Positions 44,401-45,195 of a stretch of DNA of 64,000 nucleotides are shown here, piece after piece. Where the stretch lies: NCBI GenBank assembly GCA_002633005.1, contig NMRA01000021.1, forward strand, positions 390,354 through 454,353, in the 5' to 3' direction. The position numbers were made by a program, and so were the translations under genes. The first letter of the stretch is position 1. Each line of letters opens with the position of its first letter. This DNA comes from Phoronis australis. Taxonomy: Eukaryota > Animalia > Phoronida. The notes below the pieces were generated by a model that was not told the origin of the DNA, searched no databases, and was given only the letters and a program-made list of their open reading frames with translations.

Positions 44401-45195
44401 ATAGTGAGCCTTCATAACCCTGCAAAATATAGTCGAAAGAATCGTAACATGCAATGGTGCTCGTGTGATCGCCGTGTATCACACCAGGACATCGTGACGT
44501 GCGTCACGCGCTCGTGGTGCGGCGTGTTCGTTACTTACACACGTGTTGTGTTGCGGCTGTTTGGCCGTTATTTTTAGCAAGGACGTTTCGTAGCCCTGCA
44601 AAAGTCAAAGACAATGGACATGGTGTAAGCAGAAGCCCCAATACAGACGGTACCCTCGTCATGAGTGCCCTGAAAGATAATGCTTTGAAGACAGCGCCAC
44701 CACTCCAAAGCGAATACTGCATCATGTTAGTCGAAAAAAAGCAAACCCAGCAATTTAAATTTGAAACTAAAAACGCACCTATCGAGTACCAACAATTTTC
44801 TTCTAAATGCTATCAATAAAAATTTCAGTTATTAACAAAGTACTGATCACATCATTGTAAGCAACAATTTCAAAAGATCAACAAAAAATTACTCATTCAG
44901 TCAACAGCAGTTCTTTATATTAAAATCAGAAGAAACACGTGAAAATCTTTCTTCAAAAGCTAGGTTATTTTCTCCAATAAACAATGTGCCACACTGCCAT
45001 TCATATTACAATCAACATTAGACCAGACAGCTCACAAGAACAGCCAGGACGTGAACAGGAAATGACAATGCTGTTTGTGACAGTGAGAGCAGGTGCAAGG
45101 TATTTAGTCACTCCTACCTTGTACGCTCGGAATAACAGGTAGAGTTCCCGTGGCTTTGCATCCATGGGCAACCCACTCACAAAGAGTGTCCGCAC
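32399..45195 (-). CDS. cpo: Couch potato / MEC-8 / RBPMS-family RNA-binding protein with two RRMs (5'-partial; start exon not found in window)
   Basis: Exons 45118-45195, [44539-44595 or 44366-44419], 41494-41556, 40746-40881, 38167-38321, 37488-37772, 35804-35914, then last exon 33318-33416 or 32399-32467; all GT-AG and in frame. RRM1 [51 protein letters not shown]...[26 protein letters not shown]2 [11 protein letters not shown]...[26 protein letters not shown]...[19 protein letters not shown]. Confidence 0.92.
33318..33416 (-). CDS. cpo: candidate alternative last coding exon ([32 protein letters not shown])
   Basis: ctctttatatttcag acceptor, phase 0, 99 nt to TAG; GC-rich, with composition similar to the linker exons. 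Confidence 0.55.
   Translation of the reverse strand, partial: LPIEFSQVATTTAANGHLATMQTPVLVPYFQA
35071..35093. repeat. (AAT)n microsatellite
   Basis: aataataataataataataataa. Confidence 0.8.
35804..35914 (-). CDS. cpo: cpo/RBPMS exon, RRM2 C-half ([37 protein letters not shown])
   Basis: caacag acceptor, GAG|gtgagt donor; 111 nt. Confidence 0.92.
36264..36414. repeat. 36-bp minisatellite x4 (intronic)
   Basis: gttaagtctgcatatattgcaccatctcttaagaaa head-to-tail; the first unit has a 4-bp insertion (attg). Confidence 0.92.
37488..37772 (-). CDS. cpo: cpo/RBPMS exon, linker + RRM2 N-half ([10 protein letters not shown]...[11 protein letters not shown]...PVAFVEYQ)
   Basis: ttgcag acceptor, CAG|gtaggg donor; 285 nt. 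Confidence 0.92.
38167..38321 (-). CDS. cpo: cpo/RBPMS linker exon ([51 protein letters not shown])
   Basis: attgtag acceptor, TCT|gtgagt donor; 155 nt, phase 1-0; FFPG..W.H resembles the cpo linker as I recall it. Confidence 0.88.
39698..39784 (-). CDS. candidate frame-preserving cassette exon ([28 protein letters not shown])
   Basis: tgtgttgcag acceptor, G|gtatgc donor; 87 nt, phase 1-1, stop-free in the cpo frame; no homology evidence. Confidence 0.35.
40746..40881 (-). CDS. cpo: cpo/RBPMS exon ([45 protein letters not shown])
   Basis: tttgcag acceptor, C|gtgagt donor; 136 nt, ends in phase 1. Confidence 0.92.
41494..41556 (-). CDS. cpo: cpo/RBPMS RRM1 exon ([21 protein letters not shown])
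   Basis: gttacag acceptor, CAG|gtaggt donor; 63 nt; RNP1 motif; not in the ORF track. Confidence 0.92.
44366..44419 (-). CDS. cpo: cpo/RBPMS RRM1 alternative exon B ([18 protein letters not shown])
   Basis: tattttgcag acceptor, TCA|gtaagt donor; 54 nt, phase 0-0. Confidence 0.92.
44539..44595 (-). CDS. cpo: cpo/RBPMS RRM1 alternative exon A ([19 protein letters not shown]), putative mutually exclusive
   Basis: ctttgacttttgcag acceptor, TGT|gtaagt donor; 57 nt, phase 0-0; paralogous to 44366-44419. Confidence 0.8.
45118..45195 (-). CDS. cpo: cpo/RBPMS RRM1 exon ([26 protein letters not shown])
   Basis: ggtttcag acceptor, AAG|gtagga donor; 78 nt; RNP2 motif LFVSGL. Confidence 0.93.

What the first reader, a model, noticed from the sequence alone, without database searches (positions are those of the whole stretch)
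44420..44538. 119-nt spacer intron packed with CAC motifs, a UGCAUG and two hairpins: candidate autoregulatory switch
Seen: the sense RNA reads gtaagtaacgaaCACgccgCACCACgagcgcgtgacgCACgtCACgatgtcctggtgtgataCACggcgatCACACgagCACcatTGCATGttacg...ttttgcag. It is GC/CpG-rich against AT-rich introns, with hairpins at 44493-44508 (6-bp stem) and 44463-44484 (7-bp stem) and TGCATG at 44448-44453. Known: RBPMS and MEC-8 family RRMs bind tandem (G)CAC motifs as dimers, and UGCAUG is the RBFOX element. Inference: the protein selects its own RRM exon in cooperation with RBFOX. Both exons are multiples of 3, so NMD cannot enforce exclusivity; structure or steric hindrance must.
Basis: partly seen in the sequence, partly recalled or inferred. 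Interest (0 to 1): 0.7.

Follow-up and report, generated by a model that had tools for sequence, protein, structure and literature searches.

The report
Splicing factor swaps its RNA-reading exon
The couch potato/RBPMS splicing gene carries two spliced versions of an exon that helps read RNA, here and in molluscs, worms and lamp shells, and the stretch between them keeps the protein family's own binding words plus an RBFOX word in distant relatives, so the protein likely switches its own RNA-reading part.

Summary
The 119-nt stretch is a real intron between two duplicated exons (A, 57 nt; B, 54 nt) that encode strand beta-2 and the following loop of RRM1 in a couch potato/RBPMS/MEC-8 gene of a lophotrochozoan. 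RNA reads show both exons spliced, B mainly, A in 1 of 3 raw-read runs. The pair is annotated in molluscs, an annelid, a brachiopod and a nemertean. Alone, the CAC excess is modest (p=0.026). Across species it is strong: CAC clusters, UGCAUG (4 of 5 other lineages, 0 of 24 loci without exon A) and a silent-site CAC inside exon B (7 of 7 versus 1 of 24) occur where exon A exists. The hairpins are present but no more stable than shuffles and not conserved, and exclusivity is not strict: double-inclusion and double-skip isoforms are annotated in molluscs. Best reading: the protein with RBFOX likely represses B and favours A, swapping residues that read the G of GCAC. Binding is untested; Nova-type UCAC recognition is the main rival. 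The scan had not noted this before; five paper searches found no description.

The parts
45118..45195 (-). Constitutive exon E2: RRM1 strand beta-1 and helix alpha-1 (most of the dimer interface)
   Evidence: Translation and tblastn; joints to A and B; interface residues from PMC5311487
44539..44595 (-). Alternative exon A, 57 nt, 19 codons; minor form of RRM1 beta-2 plus loop
   Evidence: Joints E2-A 4 reads and A-E4 3 reads in run X8, 0 in X6 and X7; depth about 2.7 in X8
44420..44538 (-). Spacer intron, 119 nt (the finding)
   Evidence: Sequence; no read depth in bins 44422-44532 in X6 and X8
44457..44526 (-). Cluster of 9 CAC (3 GCAC; 6 CAC-N1-12-CAC pairs), likely RBPMS-family binding sites
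   Evidence: enrichment at the same place in relatives
44448..44453 (-). UGCAUG, RBFOX element, 34 nt before the exon B acceptor
   Evidence: present within 119 nt of the acceptor in 4 of 5 other exon-A lineages and 0 of 24 loci without A
44493..44508 (-). Hairpin 1, 6-bp stem with a GCAC loop; not conserved
   Evidence: Pair probability 0.94-0.99 in short contexts, 0.03 in a 401-nt context
44463..44484 (-). Hairpin 2, 7-bp stem; not conserved
   Evidence: Pair probability 0.04-0.09 in short contexts, 0.96 in a 401-nt context
44366..44419 (-). Alternative exon B, 54 nt, 18 codons; major, ancestral-type form
   Evidence: Joints E2-B 11/5/18 and B-E4 8/7/11 in X6/X7/X8
44391..44406 (-). Two CAC 10 nt apart made by silent codon choices inside exon B (a third at 44370-44372)
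   Evidence: First site 7 of 7 exon-A loci versus 1 of 24; second 6 of 7 versus 6 of 24
44352..44358 (-). GCAC plus CAC just after the exon B donor
   Evidence: GCAC within 30 nt of the donor in 5 of 7 exon-A loci versus 2 of 24 (9 of the 24 have no intron there)
41494..41556 (-). Constitutive exon E4: RRM1 beta-3 and helix alpha-2
40746..40881 (-). Constitutive exon E5: end of RRM1

Best explanation
The intron is the spacer between two duplicated, alternatively spliced RRM1 exons of a couch potato/RBPMS gene, and it likely works as a feedback switch read by the gene's own protein together with RBFOX. Shown: exon B is the default and exon A a minor spliced alternative; CAC words before, inside and just after exon B and a UGCAUG near its acceptor are kept in lineages that have exon A. 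Inferred from the mammalian RBPMS and RBFOX position rules: when protein levels are high, dimers bind the CAC pairs and RBFOX binds UGCAUG, which blocks the exon B acceptor and, lying downstream of exon A, favours A. Inferred from the MEC-8 structure: the swap replaces beta-2 and its loop, which hold the residues reading the G of GCAC, and leaves the dimer interface intact, so the A form would still dimerise but bind RNA more weakly or with another preference. Exclusivity comes from one bound complex acting oppositely on the two exons, not from a hairpin, and is leaky in molluscs.
For: Splicing of both exons. A-before-B order in 12 of 56 genomic loci and in all 28 double-inclusion proteins. 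CAC in the 119 nt before exon B: 9,7,6,10,3,2,5 in 7 exon-A loci versus 0-4 in 24 loci without A (Mann-Whitney p=5e-5). Five non-window lineages: CAC 27 observed versus 8.7 expected, paired CAC 15 versus 2.0, TGCATG 4 versus 0.4. Of the window intron's hexamers only TGCATG and its overlap GCATGT are shared with 4 of 5 lineages; random windows do this in 0.4% of 2000 trials. Silent-site CAC in exon B (neutral expectation about 0.14 per lineage), spaced 10 nt from the next CAC, in the range of optimal dimer spacing (PMC5311487; PMC6613909). Constitutive acceptors have few CAC: 0-3 at six other acceptors of the window gene, and 0-5 at 19 acceptor rows of related loci, with 1 TGCATG. RBPMS represses from upstream or exonic CAC and activates from downstream, and switches the Tpm1 and Actn1 pairs this way; it recruits RBFOX2. 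MEC-8 Lys63, Thr65 and Ser73 contact the RNA and map into the swapped exon; an A-form model keeps the RRM fold with beta-2 in that exon.
Against: No binding or perturbation data. Outside the window the excess is mostly YCAC (18 versus 4.3); RCAC is weaker (9 versus 4.4, p=0.036) and GCAC not significant (3 versus 1.7), which also fits Nova. Two exon-A lineages have only 3 and 2 CAC in the last 119 nt (L005, L047), and the L015/L025/L054 group lacks UGCAUG. L039 and L034, B-type loci with upstream CAC clusters but no recognisable exon A in the DNA held, lack the silent-site CAC; with them the count is 4 of 6 versus 1 of 14 collapsed lineages, p=0.014. Exon-A loci are related by descent and unnamed, so p-values overstate independence. 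The window's exon A keeps Thr at the Thr65 position, unlike the Met of the 34 annotated A forms, so a specificity change is less clear here. Exon A rests on 7 joint reads in one run; its sample bias is weak (p=0.013 pooled, 0.10-0.12 per joint).
Confidence: 0.55

Rival explanations
1. The cluster is a YCAY element read by Nova/Pasilla, acting with RBFOX as a neural switch; the likeness to the gene's own motif is coincidence. The Nova motif and its cooperation with RBFOX are recalled, not from a call.
For: UCAY 23 observed versus 6.5 expected in five other lineages; both silent sites in exon B are UCAC, and L039 has UCAU at the first.
Against: YCAU is not enriched (9 versus 6.3, p=0.19) while CAC after a purine is (15 versus 5.2 with the window, p=3e-4); 6 of the window's 9 CAC follow a purine; GCAC follows the exon B donor in 5 of 7 loci.
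Confidence: 0.17
2. RBFOX or another tissue factor alone sets the choice; the CAC words are branch-site-like or serve a general CA-binding protein (hnRNP L type, recalled), with no self-regulation.
For: UGCAUG is the best conserved single word; many CAC in relatives sit in CUCAC/UUCAC words resembling a branch site; CACA/ACAC is enriched too, 17 versus 5.9.
Against: One lineage keeps the CAC cluster without UGCAUG; CAC is also held at silent sites inside the exon, where no branch site lies; constitutive acceptors lack the clusters.
Confidence: 0.15
3. RNA structure or a branch point close to the exon A donor makes the exons physically exclusive, and the motifs are by-products of the G+C-rich stems.
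For: Both stems exist, and three 6-bp stem positions occur in 2% of shuffles. No A-B joint was listed. In L015 the 83-nt spacer has no AG for about 75 nt and a CUCAC 33 nt from the donor, inside the roughly 50-nt steric limit (PMC7969005 passages). The 9 Lingula and 6 Lineus isoforms read show no double inclusion.
Against: Folding z-scores -0.9 to +1.8 in six spacers; the two stems swap with context; the spacers do not align (mean column identity 40%); AG at -42 in the window; double inclusion annotated in 28 proteins.
Confidence: 0.08
4. A neutral, G+C-rich short intron; the motifs are chance.
For: p=0.026 for CAC and 0.06 for TGCATG within the sequence; similar CAC clusters elsewhere on both strands.
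Against: Same motifs at the same place in other lineages, absent where exon A is absent.
Confidence: 0.05

Closest known systems
RBPMS control of the Tpm1 exon 2/3 and Actn1 NM/SM mutually exclusive pairs (PMC6613909, PMC10570038; passages read)
   Same: CAC clusters upstream of the downstream exon of a pair; repression from upstream or exonic sites; RBFOX2 as partner
   Different: Here the target is the regulator's own RRM exon; a UGCAUG sits in the element; no distant branch point is evident in the window; double inclusion is in frame and annotated in molluscs
RBFOX self-regulated skipping of the 93-nt RRM exon, giving RRM-defective, dominant-negative forms (PMC3575530 passages; bioRxiv 10.1101/2025.10.28.685214, listing and start of abstract only)
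   Same: An in-frame splicing choice inside the factor's own RRM, without NMD; double-skip forms (8 proteins) would lack beta-2 but keep the dimer face
   Different: A second, conserved exon copy replaces the strand instead of deleting it, and the A form is predicted to fold
C. elegans egl-15 exons 5A/5B, where FOX-family proteins and the RRM protein SUP-12 jointly repress an acceptor (recalled, no call)
   Same: RBFOX element next to the site of a second RRM protein, before one acceptor of an exon pair
   Different: Not self-regulation; different partner and motif
Sterically enforced pairs with distant branch points, e.g. OGDH 4a/4b (PMC7969005 passages)
   Same: Short intron between duplicated exons
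   Different: Window spacer has AG at -42 and no pyrimidine tract after the donor-proximal region; spacer length is free (83-1683 nt)

Membership tests
RBPMS/couch potato/MEC-8 family gene | N-terminal RRM matching MEC-8/RBPMS with conserved RNA-binding and dimer residues | tested here: met
   Window exons match relatives at 74-100%; relative P0044 hits MEC-8 E=2e-36, RBPMS 1.7e-35; A-form model matches 5BJR and 5DET
RBPMS/couch potato/MEC-8 family gene | Dimeric binding to tandem (G)CAC | not testable with these tools
   Shown for worm, fly and human proteins (PMC5311487); assumed here
Mutually exclusive duplicated exon pair | Homologous exons of like length and frame, each spliced to the same flanks | tested here: met
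   57 and 54 nt, same phase; four joints seen
Mutually exclusive duplicated exon pair | Never both, never neither | tested here: inconclusive
   No A-B or skip joint listed in this species, but rows need 3 reads and A has 3-4; not met in oyster, mussel, abalone and octopus annotations
Sterically or structurally enforced exon pair | Branch point within about 50 nt of the upstream donor with a long AG-free zone, or a conserved pairing | tested here: not met
   AG at -42; no consensus branch word; stems not conserved. Branch point itself not mapped
RBPMS-repressed exon | CAC-N1-12-CAC clusters upstream of or within the exon, conserved | tested here: met
RBPMS-repressed exon | Splicing responds to the protein and needs the CAC words | not testable with these tools
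   Exon A was seen only in the run with the highest E2 depth (8.9 versus 3.1 and 2.8 per 1000 million letters); n=3, a hint only
RBFOX-regulated exon | Conserved UGCAUG in the flanking intron | tested here: met
   5 of 6 lineages with the window; absent in one
AS-NMD autoregulation (poison exon) | Alternative product has a premature stop or frameshift | tested here: not met
   All four combinations keep the frame
Known structured RNA (Rfam) | Match to a family model | tested here: not met
   No match in the spacer at E up to 1

The most novel reading that the evidence does not exclude
An ancient lophotrochozoan feedback loop in which an RBPMS-family splicing factor, once abundant, rewrites its own RNA-reading strand: it swaps in a second folded beta-2 exon that changes the residues reading the G of GCAC (Thr to Met in annotated molluscs, annelid, brachiopod and nemertean), so feedback retunes target choice rather than destroying the message, with the control words hidden partly in silent codon positions.
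Probability: 0.3. Interest if true: 0.72.

Novelty: new variant of a known kind. Interest (0 to 1): 0.5.

Why it matters
Splicing factors usually limit themselves by making a decayed message or a dead domain. Here the alternative is a second, conserved version of the RNA-contacting strand, kept across four phyla. If the protein picks it itself, feedback changes what the factor binds, and mixed A/B dimers could read uneven motif pairs. It would also date RBPMS-RBFOX cooperation, so far worked out in mammalian smooth muscle, to the bilaterian ancestor or show it arose twice. The element is under 200 nt, so one minigene tests it.

Tried and rejected
Hairpin mechanism: energies ordinary, stems context-dependent, not shared. 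Distant branch point in the window: AG at -42, no consensus word. Rfam: nothing in the spacer. Run X5 (other organism) held only 75 nt of exon E2, so it gave no intron comparison; X9 laid nothing, which is no evidence. A 10-nt word shared with the L015 spacer is weak (p=0.016 alone, 0.07 over five comparisons). MBNL (YGCY 6 versus 5.7) and QKI words are not enriched. The idea that vertebrate exon 3 descends from exon A is untested: human RBPMS and RBPMS2 have a short loop resembling the start of the window's exon A, but 13-19 residues cannot settle it, and echinoderm and acoel proteins seen (8 and 3 named) show one exon type each as far as inspected (only the representatives were read). The phylum of the window and of L005/L013 stays undetermined. 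No whole genome is held, so the presence of RBFOX and Nova genes in this species was not checked. No complex was folded, since the tool cannot take RNA.

Full report
What the stretch is. The finding lies on the minus strand of an animal gene whose exons translate into a two-RRM protein of the couch potato/RBPMS/MEC-8 family. The best matches are lophotrochozoan: bivalves at 98% for exon E5 and Lingula at 65% for the RRM2 exon; the phylum is not determined, and an earlier scan note on another piece calls it likely a mollusc (not checked beyond this). Between E2 (45195-45118) and E4 (41556-41494) lie two homologous exons, A (44595-44539, 57 nt) and B (44419-44366, 54 nt); the 119-nt intron separates them.

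Observation check. Folding is ordinary (z -0.39; -0.83 for 381 nt).

Splicing is shown. In three raw RNA runs of the same species label (18-19% of each read), E2-B joints number 11, 5 and 18 and B-E4 joints 8, 7 and 11; E2-A (4) and A-E4 (3) appear only in X8. The spacer has no depth in X6 and X8. No A-B or double-skip joint is listed, but rows need 3 reads. X8 also has the highest depth on E2, as negative feedback predicts; three runs and seven reads make that only a hint.

The pair is ancient. Of 205 related proteins carry B alone, 34 A alone, 28 both (always A first), 8 neither, and 21 lack the flanking exons. A forms are named in bivalves, gastropods, cephalopods, Owenia, Lingula and Lineus; none appears in the arthropod proteins listed. 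Both-exon and no-exon forms are annotated in oysters, mussels, abalones and octopus; these are database gene models, not checked on reads here. So the pair is not hard-wired as exclusive.

The motifs are conserved, the structure is not. A scan of metagenome contigs for exon B with a genomic acceptor gave 56 loci. Twelve have exon A upstream, 2 are B-type with upstream CAC clusters but no recognisable A in the DNA held (L039, L034), 2 were too short, and 40 show no A; after removing near-duplicates 6 exon-A loci plus the window and 24 loci without A were compared. The latter resemble arthropod proteins or an unnamed group (rotifer by recall), and for 11 of the 24 the upstream intron is not fully held. 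CAC in the last 119 nt before B: 9, 7, 6, 10, 3, 2, 5 versus 0-4. In five non-window lineages CAC is 27 against 8.7 expected from the loci's own content, paired CAC 15 against 2.0, TGCATG 4 against 0.4. TGCATG lies there in 4 of 5 other lineages and 0 of 24 loci without A; the L015/L025/L054 group lacks it. Other acceptors of the same genes are poor in CAC. Spacer length runs from 83 to 1683 nt, the spacers do not align, folding z-scores are -0.9 to +1.8, and the window's two stems alternate with context.

Exon B makes a CAC at a Ser-Leu codon boundary in 7 of 7 exon-A loci and 1 of 24 others, and a second CAC 10 nt on in 6 of 7 versus 6 of 24. The search pattern allowed all codons there; third positions otherwise agree about 50% among these lineages, and the neutral chance of the first site is about 0.14 per lineage. 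L039 and L034 lack it; counting them and collapsing kin gives 4 of 6 versus 1 of 14, p=0.014. GCAC also follows the B donor in 5 of 7 loci. Exon B is thus ringed by CAC words where it has a competitor. Shared descent means these p-values are optimistic.

How it likely works. Mammalian RBPMS represses exons from CAC pairs upstream or inside them, activates from downstream, and switches the Tpm1 and Actn1 pairs by repressing the exon below a CAC cluster (PMC6613909, passages). It recruits RBFOX2 (PMC10570038, passages), and an upstream UGCAUG represses (PMC3575530, passages). The spacer is upstream of B and downstream of A, so both factors would push the same way, B off and A on. The UGCAUG sits within the 40-nt AG-free zone where the branch point is expected, so occlusion is plausible. 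All of this step is inference.

What the swap does. In the MEC-8 structure Thr65 and Ser73 bond to the G of GCAC and Lys63 to the A; the dimer face is helix alpha-1 and the alpha-2/beta-4 loop (PMC5311487, parts 1-2 of 5 read). By the alignment the three RNA residues fall in the swapped exon and the dimer face outside it. An AlphaFold model of a mussel A form keeps the fold, with beta-2 at residues 49-57 inside the exon (mean pLDDT 70, 79-90 over the domain). Every annotated single-exon form that is not B-type has Met at the Thr65 position, against Thr in 280 of 295 others. The window's A keeps Thr but ends in Cys at the Ser73 position with a different loop, as do L005 and L013. So the A form is predicted to dimerise but bind differently; double-skip forms would be RNA-blind dimer partners like the RBFOX RRM-less forms.

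Rivals. Nova-type YCAY reading fits the UCAC bias outside the window, but YCAU is not enriched and CAC after purines is. RBFOX alone cannot explain the lineage without UGCAUG or the exonic sites. Steric exclusion may operate in the 83-nt spacers of the L015 group but is not indicated in the window.

Novelty. Searches of the paper library for this exon pair returned no description of it; one search listed none on mec-8 self-splicing among 15 of 84 shown. Most subscription papers are outside the library and no supplements were read; exon catalogues in supplements could list the pair. The isoforms sit unremarked in public annotations. The scan's own notes hold nothing on it. It works like an RBPMS-controlled exon pair and like RBFOX self-regulation, and differs in swapping rather than deleting the RNA-reading strand: a new variant of a known kind, interest 0.5.

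Noticed in passing
window 38322-38500 and 39784-39920, minus strand: A second alternative step: E5 joins either an exon starting near 39784 (open frame ending in a stop, so a one-RRM protein) or the exon at 38321 leading to RRM2 (loose ends). The 38321 acceptor has 7 CAC in 119 nt and a TGCATG 160 nt upstream, the only other CAC-rich acceptor of nine: a possible second self-controlled switch, one versus two RRMs.
   Followed up: partly
L034, intron between E2 and exon B (497 nt): No coding exon A; instead a 65-nt AG...GT segment with an in-frame stop, whose donor context resembles the exon A donor of L005/L013, followed by a CAC-rich spacer. Exon A may have turned into a poison exon in that lineage.
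   Followed up: partly
window 33250-33720, 24780-25000, 56560-56760, minus strand: Further dense CAC/GCAC clusters on the gene's sense strand, in intron or 3' regions; the plus strand has as many clusters, so weight is unclear.
   Followed up: no
L025, L054, L026, L047, L056, acceptor of exon E5: Tandem CAGCAG acceptor, matching the one-residue length variants in many related proteins; the window has a single acceptor.
   Followed up: no
window 45197 upstream: The exon upstream of E2 seen in reads is not in the window, so the first intron exceeds 18 kb or the assembly breaks (the one-mismatch hit at 43310 is intronic).
   Followed up: partly
window 43820-44141: A few reads of the opposite orientation in run X6 within the B-E4 intron.
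   Followed up: no
window 16671-21917 (minus) and 24023-24361 (plus): Exon-like frames of another gene, and a retroelement RNase H-like fragment; labels by recall, not searched.
   Followed up: no
P0235 (Bombus affinis isoform X5): An insect isoform that skips exon B although insects show no exon A, so skipping of this strand may be older than the duplication or recur.
   Followed up: no
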